Assembly: GCA_964291495.2 (NCBI GenBank) | Contig: OZ219871.1 | Span: forward strand, 288,001-352,000 | Length of the DNA: 64,000 nucleotides | Direction of reading: 5' to 3' | From: Dehalococcoidia bacterium | GTDB lineage: Bacteria; Chloroflexota; Dehalococcoidia; UBA2979 | In this document: positions 7,264 through 12,296 of the stretch, piece by piece | Numbering within the stretch: the stretch's first letter is position 1 | How the letters are laid out: each line of letters opens with the position of its first letter | Program-made: the position numbers and the translations under genes | Notes under the pieces: generated by a model | The model's database searches: none | Seen by the model: the letters and a program-made list of their open reading frames with translations, nothing else | What the model was told of the DNA's origin: nothing

Positions 7264-8006
7264 CGCTCGTCAAGATCTGCGGTAACCGCACACCCGCCGA
7301 CGTACTCAATGCGGCCGAGGCCGGCGCCGACTTCGTGGGGATGATCTTCGCCGAGTCGAAGCGTCAGGTGGGCCTGGGCGAGGCGCAGGCGATGGTGCGG
7401 GCCCTCGGCGATCCGCTCGCCGCGCACGAGATCGCGCTGCCGCCGCCCGCTCGCGGCCACGCGCGGGAAGACGAGCGCGAGTGGTTCCGCCACGGCGCGC
7501 AGGTGATCGAGGCCTACCTCGAGGCGAAACGCCCACTCACCGTCGGCCTCTTCGCCGACCAGCCGATCGAGGAGGTCAACGAGCTGGCGCTCGAGTCCGG
7601 TGTCGATCTGGTGCAACTCTCCGGCGACGAGAGCTGGGAAGACTGCCTGCTCGTCGCCCGGCAGGTGATCCAGGTGGTGCACGTCTCGCCGCTCGACTCG
7701 CCCTCGGACCCGATGAGGTACGTCGAGCCCGGGTTCGCGATCGCGCTCATGCTGGACTCGGCGCACGGCCCTTATCGGGGCGGATCGGGCCGCACATTCG
7801 ACTGGGAGGTCGCGCGCATCGTTTCCGCCGAGCTGCCGATGCTGCTGGCCGGCGGCCTGACGCCCGAGAACGTCGGCGAGGCGATCGAGCGCGTCCGCCC
7901 CTGGGCCGTCGACGTATCGACCGGGACGGAGCGCGACGGGCGCAAGGATCCGGAGCGCGTGCGCGAGTTCATCGAGGCTGTGCGCCGCCAGGACGCCACA
8001 GCCTGA
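7260..8006 (+). CDS. trpF: Phosphoribosylanthranilate isomerase (with ~40-aa internal insertion)
   Basis: VKICG, GADFVGMIFAESKRQV, GGSGRTFDW, LAGGLTPENV, VDVSTGTE. Confidence 0.93.
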   Translation: MTLVKICGNRTPADVLNAAEAGADFVGMIFAESKRQVGLGEAQAMVRALGDPLAAHEIALPPPARGHAREDEREWFRHGAQVIEAYLEAKRPLTVGLFADQPIEEVNELALESGVDLVQLSGDESWEDCLLVARQVIQVVHVSPLDSPSDPMRYVEPGFAIALMLDSAHGPYRGGSGRTFDWEVARIVSAELPMLLAGGLTPENVGEAIERVRPWAVDVSTGTERDGRKDPERVREFIEAVRRQDATA

Positions 8007-8073
8007 CGCCCGCCGGCACTCGGCCGTCGCGCGACGCGGCCAGTGAAGCGGGTGCGGCGGAACTACAAGCCAG

Positions 8074-9267
8074 CTAGAGGCGCAGCAGGCCCCGGATCGA
8101 GAAGCCCGAGGGAATCTCCGGGCGCGCGGTGAACGCAAGGTGTCCGACGTGGTGGTTCTCGGTGCAGCCCGCCAGCGACTGCTCGGCCTGCACGGTAACG
8201 TGCCCGATGCGGTACTTGTCGTGCGCCAGGTCCTGAACGCCGGAGATCAGCTCGTCGATGTCGCCCTCGTACGAAGGGTCGACCAGGACGTGCGCGGTGA
8301 ACGCCTCGTCGTTGGAGGTGATCGTCCAGCAGTGGACGTCGTGGATCAGCTGGACACCCTCGATCTCCTCGATGTCGGCGCAGAGGCTGTAGACGTCGAC
8401 GTGCTCCGGGGTGCCCTCCAGCAGTACGTGGAAGACCCGCGTCACCAGGCCCCACGAGGAGGCGAGAATCAGGATGCCGATGATGATGCTGATGATCGGG
8501 TCGGCGATGACCCAGTCGAACGCCAGCACGAGGACGGCCGCGACGATCACACCGACAGAGCCGAGCAGGTCGGCCAGCACATGCTGGAAGGCGCCCTCGG
8601 CGTTGAGGCTGTGCTCCGCCGAGGCGTGCAGCATGTACGCGGCGATCAGGTTCACGATCAGATCGCCGGTCCCGACGATCAGCACCGGCAACCCGTCGAC
8701 GTGCACCTCCTCGACCGCGAAGCGGTGGTAGGCCTCGAAGAAGATCCAGGCGACGATCAGCCATAGCGCGAAGGCGTTGAGCAGCGCCGCCAGCACCTCC
8801 GTGCGGTAGAAGCCGAAGGTGCGCTCCGCGGACGCCTCGCGCTCGGCGAACCACATCGCGAGCAGCGCGAGGCCGATGGCGGCCGCGTCGGTGGCCATGT
8901 GCCCGGCGTCCGCCAGCAGCGCGAGGCTGCCCGAGGCCAGCCCGCCGATGATCTCGGCCAGCATGTAGCCGGCGATCAGGAACAGGCTGATCGTCAGCCT
9001 GCGACGGCTGAGCCCTCGCAGGTCGTGCGCGTGATCGTGGTGGGCGTGGTCGTGTCCATCGTGGTCGTCGTGGTCGTGGGCATCGTGGTCGTGTTCGTCG
9101 TGGCCGTGTTCGTCGTGGCCGTGTTCGTCGTGGTCGTGGTCGTCGTGGTCGTGGTCGTCGTGGTCGTGCCCGTCGTGGTCATGGTCGTCGTGGTCGTGGG
9201 CGTCGTGGTCGTGGGCGTCGTGGGCGTGCTCGTCGTGGGAGTCCGCTGCTGGCCTCAGCGTCGACAT
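8074..9267 (-). CDS. Cation diffusion facilitator (CzcD/ZitB-like) with long His/Asp-rich N-terminus
   Basis: SLALLADAGHMATD, TFGFYRTEVLAALLN, AFQHVLADLLGS, IHDVHCWTIT. About 75 N-terminal residues of HDHDx repeats. Confidence 0.93.
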   Translation of the reverse strand: MSTLRPAADSHDEHAHDAHDHDAHDHDDHDHDGHDHDDHDHDDHDHDEHGHDEHGHDEHDHDAHDHDDHDGHDHAHHDHAHDLRGLSRRRLTISLFLIAGYMLAEIIGGLASGSLALLADAGHMATDAAAIGLALLAMWFAEREASAERTFGFYRTEVLAALLNAFALWLIVAWIFFEAYHRFAVEEVHVDGLPVLIVGTGDLIVNLIAAYMLHASAEHSLNAEGAFQHVLADLLGSVGVIVAAVLVLAFDWVIADPIISIIIGILILASSWGLVTRVFHVLLEGTPEHVDVYSLCADIEEIEGVQLIHDVHCWTITSNDEAFTAHVLVDPSYEGDIDELISGVQDLAHDKYRIGHVTVQAEQSLAGCTENHHVGHLAFTARPEIPSGFSIRGLLRL

Positions 9268-9407
9268 GGCCGCCGGTTATCCCCCTACGCGCAGAACGCC
9301 CAGAGCCTGAAGGCTACCCCACGGGGCGCGCCTCCAGGCTCGTGCTCTCTCCCGGCAAGTTCGACCGTTGCAGGCAGACGACCCTTGCCGCAACCAATTC
9401 CCGCTTG

Positions 9408-9743
9408 CTAGTGGGAGTGGTGCTCGTGCTCGTCGCACTCGTGCTCGTCGTGCACGTGGGCGTGGTGCTCGTGCTCGTCGCACTCGTGCATGTCGTGCTC
9501 GTGCCCCGGCTCGCCGTGGTGCTCGTGCTCGTCGCACTCGTGCTCGTCGTGCACGTGGGCGTGGTGCTCATGCTCGTCGCACTCGTGCTCGTCGTGCCCG
9601 GCGCCGTGCGCATCGCCGTGGTGGGCGTGATCGTGCGCGTGGTGCTCGTGCTCGTCGCACTCGTGCATGTCGTGCTCGTGCCCCGGCTCGCCGTGATGCT
9701 CGTGCTCGTCGCACTCGTGGACATCGTGGACTACCTGTACCAC
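9408..9743 (-). CDS. Small His/Glu/Cys-rich repeat peptide (6 x HECDEHEHH), putative metal-binding
   Basis: AGGAGG lies 5 nt before GTG 9743 (TTG 9746 is an alternative start). CAC/CAT differences between repeat units are synonymous only in this frame. Same strand as, and directly upstream of, the CDF gene. Confidence 0.75.
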   Translation of the reverse strand: MVQVVHDVHECDEHEHHGEPGHEHDMHECDEHEHHAHDHAHHGDAHGAGHDEHECDEHEHHAHVHDEHECDEHEHHGEPGHEHDMHECDEHEHHAHVHDEHECDEHEHHSH

Positions 9744-9779
9744 CAAATCCTCCTGACCCTAAATCGCTTCTGGCTTGCG

Positions 9780-9809
9780 ATATTAACAGGTCTGGATAAC
9801 TTGAGTCTA
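9780..9809 (-). promoter_or_regulatory. Promoter for the His-rich peptide / CDF genes
   Basis: Minus strand TAGACT (9809-9804), 18-nt spacer, extended TGt-TAATAT (9785-9780). Confidence 0.5.
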
Positions 9810-9836
9810 TGACTCCAACCGAAAACCGCTCGCTAG

Positions 9837-9905
9837 GAGAAGATAAGACTTAGTATCAACTGCAACAAGAAGCCCCGTCCGAGAAGATAAGACTCAGTAT
9901 CAACT
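9837..9905. repeat. 25-bp direct repeat pair (44-bp period), operator-like
   Basis: GAGAAGATAAGACTTAGTATCAACT (9837-9861) and GAGAAGATAAGACTCAGTATCAACT (9881-9905), 24/25 identical, in an AT-rich intergenic stretch. The core is an imperfect palindrome, ATAAGACT-N-AGTATCAA. Confidence 0.85.
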
Positions 9906-10331
9906 ACGATCGTTCCATACGTGTGGCGCGGTTAGTTGTTGGTTCGTCGATTCTTTTCCTGCAGTTAACTGTTAACCTGGTGAGTGCTCCATTGCACAAC
10001 TCAAAACGTGGCCACTTTGTTGCTGGGGGGTTCGCCCGTCTCCAGAGTCGACATGTGACCGGGCACGCACGCCGAGCGCGTCCAGACCCTCGCCTCATGT
10101 CGGGAGCGCCATCGCCGGGCGCCCGGCCCTGGCCGGGCGCCGCCTCACGCGCGCCCGTGAGGCCGATCGGGCCCCGCGGAGGGCGGGCGCGGAGTTCCTC
10201 GCGGCGCCGCGGCAGCCTGCAATTCGGCGAAGCTTTCGTCGCCCACCGATGGTCGGGCCCCACGTATACTCCAACCGGGCTATACTGCGGCCCTGCCACC
10301 AATCGCGAGCGAGGGGTCAGGAGACGGAGTT

Positions 10332-10670
10332 ATGGAAATCAACGCGGAGCGCGACGGCGCGACGGTCATCGCCAGGCCGACGGGGCGCCTTGACGGCTCC
10401 AACGCGGGCGAATTCCAGGAAGCCCTGGAGTCGGCCATCGACGAGAGCGACCGCGCCCTGGTCCTGGACTTCGAGCAGATCTCCTACATCAGCAGCGCCG
10501 GGCTGAGGGTGATCCTGCTGACGGCGAGGAACCTCCAGGGCAACGGCGGCCAGATGGCGCTCTGCTCCCTCGACGCTCCGATCCGCGAGGTATTCGCTAT
10601 CAGCGGCTTCGACACGATCATCCCGATTCACGGCACCCGAGACGAGGCTCTGGCGGCAGTCGGCGGCTAG
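10332..10670 (+). CDS. STAS-domain anti-sigma factor antagonist (RsbV/SpoIIAA-like)
   Basis: GRLDGSNA, LVLDFEQISYISSAGLRVIL (phosphoacceptor Ser), EVFAISGF. Confidence 0.92.
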   Translation: MEINAERDGATVIARPTGRLDGSNAGEFQEALESAIDESDRALVLDFEQISYISSAGLRVILLTARNLQGNGGQMALCSLDAPIREVFAISGFDTIIPIHGTRDEALAAVGG

Positions 10671-10720
10671 TCCGCCGCCGTCGCACTGGAACGCAAGCGC
10701 GCACTCCCCCGAACGATGCG

Positions 10721-11872
10721 ATGACCCACAAGATCCTGGTCGTTGACGACGAGCCCGATCTCGAACCCCTGGTGCTCCAGCGCATGCGCCGCGCCATCCG
10801 GCGCGGCGTCTACGAGTTCGTCTTTGCCCGCAACGGCGTGGAGGCGCTGCAGAAGCTCGACCAGGAAGACGACATCGACATGGTCCTCTCGGACATCAAC
10901 ATGCCCGAGATGGACGGTCTGACCCTGCTGGAGCAGATTCCCACGGTGAATCCGGATATCCGGGCCGTGATCATCTCCGCCTACGGCGACATGCAGAACA
11001 TTCGCACAGCCATGAACCGCGGCGCCTTCGACTTCGTGACCAAGCCGCTGGACTTCGACGACCTGCGGATCACCGTCGACCGCACGCTCCAGCACGTCGA
11101 GGAGTGGCGCGAGGCGCTGAAGAGCCGCGACCGGCTGGTGACGCTGCAGAACGAGCTGGACGTCGCCAGCAAGATGCAGCAATCGATCCTCCCGACATCC
11201 TTCCCCAGCGGACCGAACTACAGGGTCTTCGGGACCATGGAGCCGGCGCGAAACGTGGGCGGCGACTTCTACGACGTGGTTCGCCTGCAGGACGACCAGA
11301 TCGGCCTCGCGATTGCCGACGTGTCCGGGAAGGGCGTGCCCGCCGCGCTGTTCATGATGTCCAGCCGCACCCTGCTCAAAGGCGCGGCGATCGCCTTCCA
11401 CGAACCCGGTGAGGTCCTCTCGGAGGTCAACAACCTGCTGCAGGAGGACGACACGGCCGGCATGTTCGTCACCATGCTGTACGCCACGTACAGCCCCTCC
11501 ACCGGGGTGTTCTCCTACGCGAGCGGGGGCCACGACCCGCCACTCGTGATTCACGCCGACGGCAGCTCCACCCTGCTGCCCCTGACCGGGGGCCTCGCCC
11601 TCGGCGTGGTGCCCGGTATCGAGTACCGGCAGGAGAGCTACACGCTCGCGCCCGGCGACACCGTCATCCTCTATACCGACGGGGTAACCGAAGCCACCAA
11701 CATCGACGACGCGCTGCTCGGCATCGAGGGCGTGCGCGAGCACTTCGGGCCCGGGCACCTGTCTGACGACGCCGAGGAGACCGGCATGGAGGTCATGAGG
11801 GTCGTCCGCGAATTCACCGGCGACGCCCCACAGCACGACGACATCACCTGCCTGACCCTGCGACAGGGGTAG
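10721..11872 (+). CDS. Response regulator-PP2C (SpoIIE/RsbU-like) phosphatase
   Basis: REC domain: ILVVDDE, SDINMPEMDG, FVTKP. PP2C domain: VGGDFYD, ADVSGKG, LYTDGVTE, HDDIT. Confidence 0.93.
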   Translation: MTHKILVVDDEPDLEPLVLQRMRRAIRRGVYEFVFARNGVEALQKLDQEDDIDMVLSDINMPEMDGLTLLEQIPTVNPDIRAVIISAYGDMQNIRTAMNRGAFDFVTKPLDFDDLRITVDRTLQHVEEWREALKSRDRLVTLQNELDVASKMQQSILPTSFPSGPNYRVFGTMEPARNVGGDFYDVVRLQDDQIGLAIADVSGKGVPAALFMMSSRTLLKGAAIAFHEPGEVLSEVNNLLQEDDTAGMFVTMLYATYSPSTGVFSYASGGHDPPLVIHADGSSTLLPLTGGLALGVVPGIEYRQESYTLAPGDTVILYTDGVTEATNIDDALLGIEGVREHFGPGHLSDDAEETGMEVMRVVREFTGDAPQHDDITCLTLRQG

Positions 11873-11876
11873 CGAG

Positions 11877-12296
11877 TTGAGCACGTCATTGCTACTGACC
11901 ATGAAGACCGACCGCGACGAACTGGAGCGGATCGTCGCCGCTATCGAGAACCTCGCGGAAGAGGACGACTGGCCGGCCGACCTGCTCTTCCGGGTCAACC
12001 TCGTGCTCGAAGAACTGAGTCTCAACATCATCGACTACGGGCATGACGACGACACCAGCGACTTCGAGATCGCCTTCATGTCGGAAGAGGACTCACTGAC
12101 CATCGAGATCGTCGACGGCGGACGGGCGTTCGATCCCCTGAACGACGCTCCGGAGCCGGATCTCAGCTCCGGAGTCGCGGAGCGGCGCGTGGGTGGTCTC
12201 GGCGTCCACTTCGTGCGCACGCTGATGGACGACGTGCAGTACGAGCGCTCCGCGGGCAAGAACCGCTTGAAGATGGTCACACGCAAGGTCAGATGA
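11877..12296 (+). CDS. RsbW-like anti-sigma factor / Ser kinase (HATPase)
   Basis: LVLEELSLNIIDYG, IVDGGRAFDP, RRVGGLGVHFVRTLMD. Confidence 0.9.
   Translation: MSTSLLLTMKTDRDELERIVAAIENLAEEDDWPADLLFRVNLVLEELSLNIIDYGHDDDTSDFEIAFMSEEDSLTIEIVDGGRAFDPLNDAPEPDLSSGVAERRVGGLGVHFVRTLMDDVQYERSAGKNRLKMVTRKVR

What the first reader, a model, noticed from the sequence alone, without database searches (positions are those of the whole stretch)
9408..9743. Small HECDEHEHH-repeat peptide: candidate new metal-storage or chaperone protein
Seen: a 111-aa ORF made almost entirely of His, Glu and Asp, with six exact copies of HECDEHEHH (one Cys each) and recurring linkers GEPGHEHDM and AHVHDE. It has a strong RBS and a candidate promoter. 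CAC/CAT variants between units are silent in this frame but change amino acids in the alternative Thr/Ser frame. It lies directly upstream of a CDF exporter on the same strand. Known: His-rich metal buffers (Helicobacter Hpn) and Cys-rich metallothioneins (SmtA) exist, but I do not recognise this modular His/Cys/acid unit. Inference: a repeat-number-tunable Zn/Ni/Co sink co-expressed with an efflux pump. Gene callers would probably miss it or call the wrong frame.
Basis: partly seen in the sequence, partly recalled or inferred. Interest (0 to 1): 0.75.

Follow-up and report, generated by a model that had tools for sequence, protein, structure and literature searches.

The report
Unannotated histidine-cysteine repeat zinc-binding protein
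A real but uncalled gene encodes a small acidic protein built from six copies of a histidine/cysteine motif; it belongs to an unnamed family in Dehalococcoidia that sits beside zinc exporters and carries the same operator as zinc-uptake genes, so it is most likely a new kind of cellular zinc buffer.

Summary
Window 9408-9743 (- strand) encodes a 111-aa protein (40 His, 25 Glu, 14 Asp, 6 Cys) with six exact HECDEHEHH units, an AGGAGG ribosome-binding site and a GTG start.

- It is a coding gene in this frame. Median dN/dS is 0.22, against 0.85-1.87 in the other five frames.
- It belongs to an unnamed family. There was no Pfam, NCBIfam or PDB match, and no paper was found. 211 loci turned up in the species-representative genomes, and the 80 kept are all Chloroflexota, mostly Dehalococcoidia.
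- Members carry 2-10 units, nearly always an even number, with one invariant Cys per unit.
- A ZitB-like CDF exporter lies directly beside the gene in 57 of 80 loci. In two loci the exporter's own N-terminus carries the motif, and some loci also hold znuABC.
- A 15-bp Fur-type palindrome (TGAKAC-N3-GTMTCA) marks the znuA promoters of this genus. It also occurs, often in pairs, upstream of the His gene in 53 of 80 loci, against 49 of 1813 control windows.

Best reading: a disordered, high-capacity cytosolic Zn(II) buffer or store. It would be a histidine-based functional analogue of metallothionein, controlled by the probable Zur. Metal binding, expression and the direction of regulation are all untested.

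The scan noted similar proteins in three other genomes before.

The parts
9408..9743 (-). Gene for the 111-aa His/Cys repeat protein (GTG start at 9743, stop TAG at 9408-9410). It has six HECDEHEHH units joined alternately by GEPGHEHDM and AHVHDE-type linkers, plus one long central linker.
   Evidence: Purifying selection acts in this frame only. Orthologs occur in 11 of 18 other genus genomes.
9749..9754 (-). Ribosome-binding site AGGAGG, 5 nt upstream of the GTG start.
   Evidence: Read. A GGAGG/GGAG element lies at the same place in the 12 genus loci.
9844..9858 (-). Proximal 15-bp Fur-type palindrome TGATACTAAGTCTTA, a candidate Zur box.
   Evidence: The same box type lies upstream of both znuA genes of this genome and of 8 of 8 znuA loci in five sister genomes.
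9888..9902 (-). Distal 15-bp palindrome TGATACTGAGTCTTA. It is part of a 44-nt tandem duplication of the box-plus-flank segment.
9840..9868 (-). Candidate promoter P1: TTGTTG (9863-9868), 17 nt, TATCTT (9840-9845). The proximal box fills the spacer, which is a repressor-type geometry.
   Evidence: Read by eye. Sister loci show TTGCTT/TTGCCC-18-TATATT/TATAGT at the aligned place. The consensus scan found no promoter at 9 of 12 matches or better. Inference.
9780..9809 (-). Alternative candidate promoter P2: TAGACT (9804-9809), 18 nt, TAATAT (9780-9785), with TG at 9787-9788. Both boxes would then lie upstream of -35, which is an activator-type geometry.
   Evidence: Read. The CYTGYTAR element is kept in 7 of 12 genus loci. 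Inference.
9803..9815 (-). Inverted repeat GAGTC-ATA-GACTC in the leader/promoter region, partly conserved in sister genomes. Role unknown.
9268..9407 (-). 140-nt spacer between the His-protein gene and the CDF gene. It contains a 13-bp GC-rich hairpin with no U-tract.
   Evidence: MFE -69.4 kcal/mol, z -1.88, not significant. No terminator-like site was found.
8074..9267 (-). CDF exporter of 397 aa. It has a ~75-aa His/Asp-rich N-terminal extension and HxxxD motifs in TM2 and TM5. It is the only CDF found in this genome.
   Evidence: PF01545. (TIGR01297; ZitB model 254 bits, below its 408-bit cut-off; DmeF 109 bits). (single match in the genome). (H123, D127, H229 and D233 invariant in 43 sequences).

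Best explanation
The gene encodes a cytosolic, very acidic protein that is intrinsically disordered when metal-free. I propose that it binds many Zn(II) ions and acts as a zinc buffer or store. It would be a histidine-dominated functional analogue of bacterial metallothionein.

The working module is the family-wide unit [A/G]-H-x-H-D-x-H-E-C-D-x-H-E-H-H. Each unit supplies about 7 His, 1 invariant Cys and 4 carboxylates. Units come in pairs joined alternately by a short AHxHD linker and a longer G(D)EPGHxHD linker.

Inferred: each unit forms at least one tetrahedral site using Cys, two His and a carboxylate, which is the N2OS ligand set of Zur sensory sites. That gives 6 to about 12 Zn per protein.

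Inferred from operators: transcription is controlled by the Fur-family regulator encoded next to znuA (probable Zur), through one or two 15-bp palindromes shared with the znuA promoters.

The protein works alongside a ZitB-type CDF exporter and may hand zinc to it. The sign of regulation is unresolved. It could be Zn-Zur activation, as for zitB in Streptomyces and bmtA in Synechococcus, or derepression under zinc starvation. I lean slightly to activation.

Shown: the gene is real and conserved, and its genomic and operator associations hold. Not shown: metal binding, metal identity, expression, regulator identity.
For: 1. The gene is real. dN/dS is 0.08-0.34 in this frame, against medians of 0.85-1.87 in the other five frames. 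Start codon and RBS are conserved.

2. It belongs to a family. 211 loci were found in genome contigs. In the 80 kept, 370 units were collected, and H1, E2, C3, H6, E7, H8 and H9 are invariant in all 370, with D4 in 369. Unit counts are 3:1, 4:41, 5:1, 6:15, 7:1, 8:15, 9:1 and 10:5. Two-unit proteins of 31-57 aa also exist.

3. Zinc context.
- A CDF lies directly downstream on the same strand in 44 of 80 loci and is adjacent and convergent in 13 of 80.
- The CDF scores best against ZitB and has invariant HxxxD/HxxxD. That this pair marks Zn-type CDFs is from recall.
- In L026 and L037 the CDF N-terminus itself contains two HECDxHEHH units.
- znuA/znuC/znuB lie within 6 kb in 11-14 loci.
- In a genome of another class (G359) the same arrangement recurs.

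4. Operator.
- GA[TG]AC-N3-GT[CA]T[CT] occurs in pairs upstream of both znuA genes, one of which is next to a Fur-family gene.
- In 8 of 8 znuA loci of five sister genomes, all hits lie at the znuA start.
- A box with at least 9 of 10 arm matches lies within 400 nt upstream of the His gene in 53 of 80 loci, against 49 of 1813 control windows.
- In G359 the only 2 perfect boxes in 8 kb lie upstream of the His gene.

5. Disorder. AlphaFold2 gives pLDDT 43.4 and 47.9 with two alignments, as expected for a protein that folds only around metal.

6. Precedents. Zn-Zur activates zitB from a 15-bp box 8 nt upstream of -35 (PMC9371925 and PMC5472717, passages read). Five loci here show a box 8 nt upstream of TTGACA-17-TAACAT. 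Zur activates the metallothionein gene bmtA, which has two Zur boxes (PMC9337993, passages read).
Against: - No metal-binding, expression or regulation data exist. No RNA run was listed.
- NCBIfam cannot tell whether the Fur-family protein next to znuA is Zur or Fur; all hits are far below the cut-offs.
- The box also precedes non-zinc-specific genes: Peripla_BP_2 with an ABC gene, two SBP_bac_5 genes, and an acyl-CoA dehydrogenase/pth pair. The regulon could therefore respond to another metal.
- 27 of 80 loci have no box at the threshold used.
- A whole sub-lineage lies between NAD kinase/NUDIX and sdhAB genes with neither a CDF nor, mostly, a box.
- Promoter geometry is inconsistent between lineages. 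The box sits inside the spacer in L060 and perhaps here, but upstream of -35 in 5 loci and in G359.
- His-rich proteins bind Ni, Co, Cu and Cd as readily as Zn in vitro (general knowledge).
- The loci are related genomes, not independent samples.
Confidence: 0.6

Rival explanations
1. It is a dedicated partner of the CDF exporter. It would be a detachable version of the pump's His-rich cytoplasmic N-terminal domain that captures Zn(II) and delivers it to the transport site or gates the pump, rather than a general buffer.
For: A CDF is adjacent in 57 of 80 loci, and the adjacency survives a change of orientation. All adjacent CDFs carry His-rich N-terminal extensions. In L026 and L037 that extension contains two HECDxHEHH units. 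The gene and the CDF N-terminus are the two most His-dense ORFs of this genome.
Against: Three sister genomes (G002, G005, G016; completeness 87-94%) keep the gene under selection, but no PF01545 match was found anywhere in them. In 22 of 80 loci no CDF lies within 6 kb. No fused or longer forms were found in the protein database. Convergent CDFs lack the box in 12 of 13 cases, so the two genes are not co-regulated there.
Confidence: 0.15
2. It is a nickel/cobalt (or Cd/Cu) storage or detoxification protein that works like Helicobacter Hpn. The linked CDF and Fur-family regulator would serve that metal rather than zinc.
For: The composition, His-rich with a few Cys, resembles Ni-binding proteins (recalled). 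The box also precedes two SBP_bac_5 genes, the family that includes NikA-type nickel/metallophore binding proteins (the NikA link is recalled). CDFs of the DmeF type export Co/Ni, and the DmeF model does hit the pump at 109 bits.
Against: The pump scores 254 bits against ZitB and 109 against DmeF. The box marks znuA genes whose products carry ~100-aa His/Asp/Glu loops typical of zinc-specific ZnuA (the specificity rule is recalled). No urease, hydrogenase or other Ni-enzyme genes recur among the neighbours.
Confidence: 0.1
3. It is induced by zinc starvation and acts as an acquisition-side factor. It would be co-derepressed with ZnuABC to catch incoming zinc and pass it to client proteins, in a role like Zur-regulated COG0523 chaperones, and would not act as a store for surplus zinc.
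For: The operator is shared with znuA. The box lies inside the spacer of a good promoter in L060, and of candidate promoter P1 here, which is the classical repression geometry. The gene sits at the end of znuACBB clusters in some loci.
Against: Where canonical promoters are recognisable (5 loci plus G359), the box lies 8-15 nt upstream of -35, which is the activation geometry of ScZur at zitB (PMC9371925). Adjacency to an exporter fits surplus handling better. The protein has no GTPase or other catalytic domain.
Confidence: 0.1
4. It is a repeat-core precursor peptide (RiPP) that is cut into small His/Cys metallophores.
For: It has several identical short core-like units separated by linkers, and each unit has one Cys.
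Against: None of the 35 recurrent neighbour clusters scanned matched a Pfam family that I recognise as a peptide-modifying enzyme, protease or export system. The protein has no leader-like N-terminus. The linkers are conserved as strongly as the units.
Confidence: 0.03
5. It is not a gene in this frame. It would be a GC-rich tandem DNA repeat, or a gene in the Thr/Ser frame or on the opposite strand (Val/Leu-rich ORF 9342-9812 +).
For: Three frames stay open through the repeat and have equally high GC3: 0.94, 0.92 and 0.92.
Against: Median dN/dS is 1.54 in the Thr/Ser frame and 1.87 in the codon-aligned antisense frame, against 0.22 in the His frame. Substitutions cluster at third positions of the His frame. 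An RBS and an ATG/GTG start are conserved for the His frame.
Confidence: 0.02

Closest known systems
Bacterial metallothionein BmtA/SmtA, especially the Zur-activated bmtA of Synechococcus sp. WH8102 (PMC9337993)
   Same: Both are small cytosolic proteins presumed to hold several Zn(II) ions and to be unfolded without metal. Both genes carry two Fur-family (Zur-type) boxes of the kind that also control znuA. Both organisms are marine bacteria that appear to use one sensor for uptake and storage.
   Different: There is no sequence similarity; Pfam gives no hit. Ligands are mostly His (36%), with one Cys per 15-19 residues, instead of a Cys-rich cluster. The protein is a modular tandem repeat of 2-10 units rather than one fixed domain. 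It is usually paired with a CDF exporter.
Hpn / Hpn-2 of Helicobacter pylori (small His-rich Ni-binding proteins; recalled, also named in earlier scan notes)
   Same: Both are small, cytosolic, about one-third to one-half His with a few Cys, and act as a high-capacity metal reservoir.
   Different: There are no poly-His runs; the longest run is HH. The repeat unit is strictly periodic. The genomic context is zinc (ZitB-type CDF, znuABC) rather than nickel enzymes. The taxonomic range is different (Chloroflexota).
Zur-activated zitB of Streptomyces coelicolor (PMC5472717, PMC9371925)
   Same: A ZitB-type CDF locus carries a 15-bp 7-1-7-like Fur-family palindrome. In five loci of this family the box lies 8 nt upstream of a -35 element, as at zitB (passage).
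   Different: Here the box precedes the small His/Cys protein gene, not the pump itself; convergent pumps lack it in 12 of 13 cases. The half-site sequence differs (TGAKAC). Nothing has been tested experimentally.
His-rich cytoplasmic N-terminal or loop regions of CDF transporters and His-rich loops of ZnuA
   Same: The composition is the same (His/Asp/Glu). In L026 and L037 the CDF N-terminus contains the very same HECDxHEHH units.
   Different: This is a free-standing protein with an invariant Cys in every unit. The pump and ZnuA extensions of this genome lack Cys.

Membership tests
Bacterial metallothionein (SmtA/BmtA) | Sequence match to the family model | tested here: not met
   There were no Pfam-A hits at E up to 0.1, no NCBIfam hits at E up to 1, and no PDB profile hit at E up to 1.
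Bacterial metallothionein (SmtA/BmtA) | Cys-rich (about 9 Cys in ~55 aa, recalled), forming a Zn4 thiolate cluster | tested here: not met
   The protein has 6 Cys in 111 aa, one per unit and 15-26 residues apart. His makes up 36%.
Bacterial metallothionein (SmtA/BmtA) | Binds several Zn(II) ions and folds around them | not testable with these tools
   Only the disorder of the apo-form is predicted (pLDDT 43.4 and 47.9).
Hpn-like His-rich Ni proteins | Poly-His runs and paired Cys (recalled) | tested here: not met
   The longest His run is 2, and no Cys-Cys pair or CxxC occurs (sequence).
Hpn-like His-rich Ni proteins | Nickel-enzyme context (urease/hydrogenase) | tested here: not met
   The recurrent neighbours are CDF, ZnuA, ABC-3, ABC_tran, STAS, and trp or sdh genes.
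Zur regulon member | Operator of the same type as upstream of znuABC | tested here: met
   the boxes are shared with znuA in this genus, occur upstream of the gene in 53 of 80 loci, and occur in control windows in 49 of 1813.
Zur regulon member | The regulator is a zinc-sensing Zur, and binding depends on zinc | tested here: inconclusive
   A Fur-family gene lies directly upstream of znuA, but NCBIfam scores do not separate Zur, Fur and PerR. Binding cannot be tested here.
HECDxHEHH repeat family (unnamed, defined here) | At least 2 units of H-E-C-D-x-H-E-H-H spaced 15-19 residues apart, a His-rich acidic composition, and no signal peptide | tested here: met
   The protein has six exact units. 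It aligns over its full length at 76-95% identity with 11 genus orthologs and shares the unit with all 80 fetched loci.
Zn-type CDF (ZitB/CzcD-like), for the neighbouring pump | Cation_efflux domain, with HxxxD in TM2 and HxxxD in TM5 (signature recalled) | tested here: met
   PF01545 matches. H123, D127, H229 and D233 are invariant in 43 sequences. ZitB is the best NCBIfam model, but its score is below the equivalog cut-off.

The most novel reading that the evidence does not exclude
Marine and sponge-type Dehalococcoidia (including SAR202 relatives) would use a previously unrecognised, histidine-based 'metallothionein'. It is built from 2-10 copies of a 15-19-residue unit, and each unit forms a Cys/His2/carboxylate zinc site like that of the sensor itself. 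A single Fur-family sensor would repress znuABC and activate this protein, setting the cellular zinc quota, with a ZitB-type pump as overflow. The unit also works as a plug-in N-terminal domain of the pump. This would be a new structural class of metal-storage protein and a second, independent example of one-sensor zinc quota control.
Probability: 0.3. Interest if true: 0.75.

Novelty: new variant of a known kind. Interest (0 to 1): 0.6.

Why it matters
Zinc buffering inside bacteria is poorly understood. Outside cyanobacteria and a few pseudomonads, no storage protein is known. Here is a conserved, strongly selected family that standard annotation leaves out. It lies in an abundant marine lineage and has a clear, testable link to both zinc uptake control and zinc export.

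If it binds zinc as proposed, it adds a new histidine-based design to the metallothionein concept. It would give a modular peptide unit of possible use in metal capture. It would also show that gene callers systematically miss low-complexity metal proteins in GC-rich genomes.

If the Fur-family box activates the gene, this would be a further case of one sensor controlling import, storage and export.

Tried and rejected
- **Rfam:** an E-value scan of 7900-10500 gave only a chance snoRNA hit (E 0.7), so there is no riboswitch upstream of the pump.
- **Consensus promoter/terminator scan:** nothing found. The promoters named in this report were read by eye.
- **ESM Atlas:** no usable hit.
- **Longer or fused forms in the protein database:** none found.
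- **Structure prediction:** two AlphaFold2 runs gave pLDDT below 50, so no fold search was made.
- **Sequencing runs:** no RNA holder was listed. Logan contigs of four runs do not bridge the repeat. The many short 90-95% pieces and joints come from repeats and relatives and say nothing on repeat number. The small-share runs were not used for habitat.
- **Exact 18-mer of the upstream direct repeat:** it occurs nowhere else in the genome. The looser palindrome was the informative pattern.
- **Intergenic RNA fold between the gene and the pump:** not significant, z -1.88.
- **Strict sigma-70 search near boxes:** it resolved only 7 of 81 loci, so the sign of regulation stays open.
- **Complex prediction** (pump dimer without its N-terminus, plus this protein, plus 4 Zn): it could not be queued in any attempt, so no result exists.
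- **Literature:** the searches found no paper on this motif or family. This covers only the held library; subscription journals are not searched.
Full report
**1. What is there**

On the - strand of the window, an ORF runs from a GTG at 9743 to a TAG at 9408-9410. An AGGAGG lies 5 nt before the GTG. In six of the twelve same-genus loci the homologous codon is ATG, which fixes the start and gives 111 residues.

The protein has 40 His, 25 Glu, 14 Asp, 6 Cys and almost nothing hydrophobic. Its pI is 5.2, and it has no signal peptide or membrane segment.

HECDEHEHH occurs exactly six times, at residues 9, 27, 53, 68, 86 and 101. GEPGHEHDM occurs twice and AHVHDE twice. At the DNA level four of the six 27-nt units are identical. 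The other two each differ by one silent CAC>CAT change.

A CDF gene follows 140 nt downstream on the same strand, at 8074-9267 (PF01545). It is the only CDF found in this 3.08-Mb genome.

**2. It is a gene, in this frame**

Three of the six frames stay open across the repeat and have equally high GC3: 0.94, 0.92 and 0.92. Composition therefore cannot choose between them, which is probably why callers fail.

Comparison with orthologs can choose. Eleven of 18 other genomes of the genus, but none of 22 genomes from other genera of the family and class, have an open ortholog.
- Across the 12 sequences, variable sites fall 25/26/72 on codon positions 1/2/3.
- Pairwise dN/dS against the window is 0.08-0.34 (median 0.22) in the His frame.
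- The medians in the other five frames are 0.85-1.87. This includes the Thr/Ser frame and the codon-aligned antisense Val/Leu frame.

Substitutions concentrate at two positions: the residue before each unit and the x of GHxHD. The unit itself is invariant.

In this genome the block unit1-linker-unit2 is 98.8% identical to unit4-linker-unit5. That is more than to any ortholog (96% or less), so intragenic conversion has acted recently.

**3. Repeat number**

Short-read contigs of the best-holding run match both flanks without a difference (9138-9446 and 9666-10100), but nothing listed spans the array. The reads therefore neither confirm nor contradict six units.

The same six-unit, 111-113-aa layout is seen in 10 other genus genomes, several assembled as one to three contigs. 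This makes an assembly artefact unlikely. One genome (G017) has five units.

**4. The family**

A pattern scan of one genome per prokaryotic species found 253 stretches, of which 211 encode a relative. The 80 kept all carry Chloroflexota titles: Dehalococcoidia, SAR202 cluster, Tepidiformaceae and a few others.

In an even sample of 400 other genomes of the phylum, the motif was found in one. That genome, from another class, has a 77-aa four-unit protein followed by a CDF and flanked by a znuB-type gene.

Unit number per protein in the 80 loci is 3:1, 4:41, 5:1, 6:15, 7:1, 8:15, 9:1 and 10:5, so 76 of 80 are even. Two-unit proteins of 31-57 aa exist in metagenomes.

From 370 units, the consensus is [A/G]-H-x-H-D-x-H-E-C-D-x-H-E-H-H. 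The seven positions H1, E2, C3, H6, E7, H8 and H9, and the H at -2, are invariant in all 370, and D4 in 369. Cys-to-Cys spacing is mostly 15 or 17-19 residues. Short AHxHD linkers alternate with longer G(D)EPGHxHD linkers. This gives a two-unit super-repeat and explains the even numbers.

**5. It is unnamed and largely uncalled**

The following searches found nothing:
- Pfam
- NCBIfam
- a PDB profile search
- the ESM Atlas
- four literature searches

The 5.8-billion-cluster protein database holds 7 relatives and no longer forms. A full profile search of 1.84 billion representatives gives 20 hits, mostly short.

The pump protein of this very contig is in the 15-billion collection. None of five ORF versions at the His locus is, nor are three orthologs tested.

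**6. Genomic partners**

I searched the 80 loci with the window's pump core by tblastn.

| Arrangement of the CDF | Loci (of 80) |
|---|---|
| Directly downstream, same strand | 44 |
| Adjacent and convergent | 13 |
| Elsewhere in the locus | 1 |
| None within 6 kb | 22 |

All adjacent pumps have His/Asp-rich N-terminal extensions. In L026 and L037 that extension contains two HECDxHEHH units with the GDEPGHVHD linker. This is a domain-fusion link between the module and the pump.

The pump is Zn-type by its best model (ZitB 254 bits, DmeF 109; both below the equivalog cut-offs). It also has invariant HxxxD motifs in TM2 and TM5 (that this pair marks Zn-CDFs is recalled).

Clustering of neighbours, followed by a Pfam scan, shows ZnuA, ABC-3 and ABC_tran genes in 12, 14 and 23 loci. 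The window's ZnuA finds a match in 11 of 80. L087 reads znuA-znuC-znuB-znuB, then the His gene, then a convergent CDF.

The link to the pump is not obligate.
- Among genus genomes with the gene but no adjacent pump, no PF01545 match was found anywhere in G002, G005 and G016 (completeness 87, 94 and 92%).
- Among six genus genomes without the gene, two have a CDF and four do not.
- One sub-lineage carries the gene between NAD kinase/NUDIX and sdh genes.

**7. A shared operator with znuA**

Upstream of the gene lies a 44-nt tandem duplication. Each copy holds TGATACT(A/G)AGTCTTA, at 9844-9858 and 9888-9902. This is a 6-3-6 palindrome with the outline of a 15-bp Fur-family box.

In the window's genome, the relaxed pattern GA[TG]AC-N3-GT[CA]T[CT] hits 13 sites. 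Perfect 13-mers number 11, against 3 in the reversed genome. The sites fall as follows:
- Pairs lie before each of the two znuA genes. One of these directly follows a Fur-family gene, and both encode ~100-aa His/Asp/Glu loops.
- A pair lies between a Peripla_BP_2 gene and an ABC gene.
- Single sites lie before two SBP_bac_5 genes, before an unknown membrane protein, and between an acyl-CoA dehydrogenase gene and pth.
- One site lies inside a gene.

In five sister genomes, all hits in eight ~4-kb znuA loci lie at the znuA start, one to four per locus.

Across the 80 family loci, at least one box (9 of 10 arm matches or better) lies within 400 nt upstream of the His gene in 53. The same holds in 49 of 1813 control windows from the same loci. 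Boxes are often paired. In G359 the only two perfect boxes in 8 kb lie 78 and 215 nt upstream of the gene. Convergent pumps have a box upstream in 1 of 13 cases.

The regulator is therefore tied to the small gene, not to the pump. I take it to be Zur because of the znuA link. NCBIfam cannot separate Zur from Fur or PerR for either Fur-family protein, so this step is inference.

**8. Sign of regulation**

Two promoter readings are possible here.
- P1 is TTGTTG-17-TATCTT with the proximal box in the spacer. Sister loci have TTGCTT or TTGCCC, 18 nt, then TATATT. This implies repression by the metal-bound regulator.
- P2 is TAGACT-18-TAATAT with a TG extension, 34 nt downstream of the box. Its -10 region is conserved in 7 of 12 genus loci. 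This implies activation.

Recognisable canonical promoters elsewhere point toward activation.
- Five loci have TTGACA-17-TAACAT with one box 8 nt upstream of -35 and a second box 36 nt upstream.
- G359 has TTGACA, then TAGGAT, 15 nt downstream of a box.
- These match the geometry at which Zn-Zur activates zitB in Streptomyces coelicolor: a 15-bp box 8 nt upstream of -35, with further palindromes upstream (PMC9371925 and PMC5472717, passages read).

In Synechococcus WH8102, Zur activates the metallothionein gene bmtA through two boxes, one of which overlaps the promoter. The authors find no rule linking box number to the sign of regulation (PMC9337993, passages read).

I therefore leave the sign open, with a slight preference for activation.

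**9. Mechanism proposed**

AlphaFold2 predicts no structure from a 12-sequence or a 39-sequence alignment (pLDDT 43.4 and 47.9). This fits a protein that orders only around metal.

Each unit offers one thiolate, about seven imidazoles and four carboxylates. The absolute invariance of the single Cys argues for defined sites rather than a diffuse poly-His cloud. A Cys + 2 His + Asp/Glu site would copy the N2OS set described for Zur sensory sites (PMC9337993). It could poise the buffer near the sensor's set-point.

The two-unit minimal proteins and the even unit numbers suggest that two units, bent at the Pro-Gly linker, cooperate. All of this is inference.

Together with sections 6 and 7, the most economical reading is a cytosolic Zn(II) buffer or store. 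It would belong to the probable Zur regulon and work next to, and possibly feed, a ZitB-type pump.

**10. Rivals**

| Reading | Confidence | Main evidence against or for |
|---|---|---|
| Pump-dedicated chaperone | 0.15 | Weakened by genomes that keep the gene without any CDF found |
| Ni/Co (or other metal) protein | 0.10 | Weakened by the ZitB-type pump and the znuA link |
| Starvation-induced acquisition factor | 0.10 | Stands or falls with the sign of regulation |
| RiPP precursor | 0.03 | No maturase-like neighbours |
| Not a gene in this frame | 0.02 | Rejected by the six-frame test |

**11. Novelty and earlier notes**

The kind, a small multi-site metal-binding protein under a metal sensor, is known. 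This family, its unit, its His-dominated chemistry and its pairing with CDF pumps are not described in anything I could search.

The scan itself has met similar proteins in three other genomes (notes e1-2143692, e1-1257343, e1-2132956). Their readings, a metal-buffering partner of a zinc exporter and in one case control by the zinc sensor, agree with mine. Here I tested the selection, the distribution, the pump linkage and the shared operator independently.

**12. Limits**

- The loci are related genomes, so the counts are not independent events.
- Only 80 of 211 loci were examined.
- Starts of relatives were chosen by rule.
- Alignment A2 uses 39 of the 41 four-unit proteins; two with long predicted N-termini were left out.
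- Alignment A3 uses the window's pump plus 42 of the 44 same-strand pumps.
- Promoters were read by eye.
- No expression or metal data exist.
- The complex prediction could not be run.

Noticed in passing
window 9022-9238 (- strand, inside the CDF gene 8074-9267): The pump's ~75-aa His/Asp N-terminal extension is encoded by a 15-bp tandem repeat (14.5 copies, 85% matches). Its length and sequence differ strongly between orthologs, whereas the membrane core is 55-92% identical.
   Followed up: partly
own genome C5:1503869-1505080 and C5:744453-745802 (outside the window); L087:264-2822: Both ZnuA proteins carry ~100-residue His/Asp/Glu-rich loops built from short repeats. A relative's ZnuA ORF reaches 852 aa. 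With the pump and the His protein, this lineage has unusually long His-rich segments on every zinc-handling protein.
   Followed up: partly
own genome C5:141796-141810: A perfect palindrome, TGATACTCAGTATCA, lies between an acyl-CoA dehydrogenase gene and the peptidyl-tRNA hydrolase gene. It is the best match to the box in the genome but has no obvious metal link.
   Followed up: partly
own genome C5:778298-778342, C6:333509-333521, C6:865251-865263: The same box type precedes a Peripla_BP_2 gene (divergent from an ABC_membrane/ABC_tran gene) and two SBP_bac_5 genes. These are candidate metallophore or metal-chelate uptake systems of the same regulon.
   Followed up: partly
window 10332-12296 (+ strand): A partner-switching module lies divergent from the His gene: a STAS anti-sigma antagonist, a response-regulator/SpoIIE phosphatase and an HATPase_c_2 anti-sigma kinase. 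It is syntenic in 6 of 12 genus loci. No link to the finding was seen.
   Followed up: no
window 9803-9815 (- strand): The inverted repeat GAGTC-ATA-GACTC lies between the boxes and the start codon and is partly conserved in sister genomes. It overlaps the -35 of candidate promoter P2.
   Followed up: no
window 9408-9743, units 1-2 versus units 4-5: The two 81-nt blocks are 98.8% identical in this genome and 86-96% identical in ten orthologs. This points to recent intragenic gene conversion.
   Followed up: yes
L007-L011, just after the stop codon of the His gene: In the more distant genus orthologs a GC-rich perfect hairpin (GGAGCCGCTCCC...GGGAGCGGCTCC) directly follows the stop codon. It may be a terminator or a stabiliser that separates the gene from the pump.
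   Followed up: no
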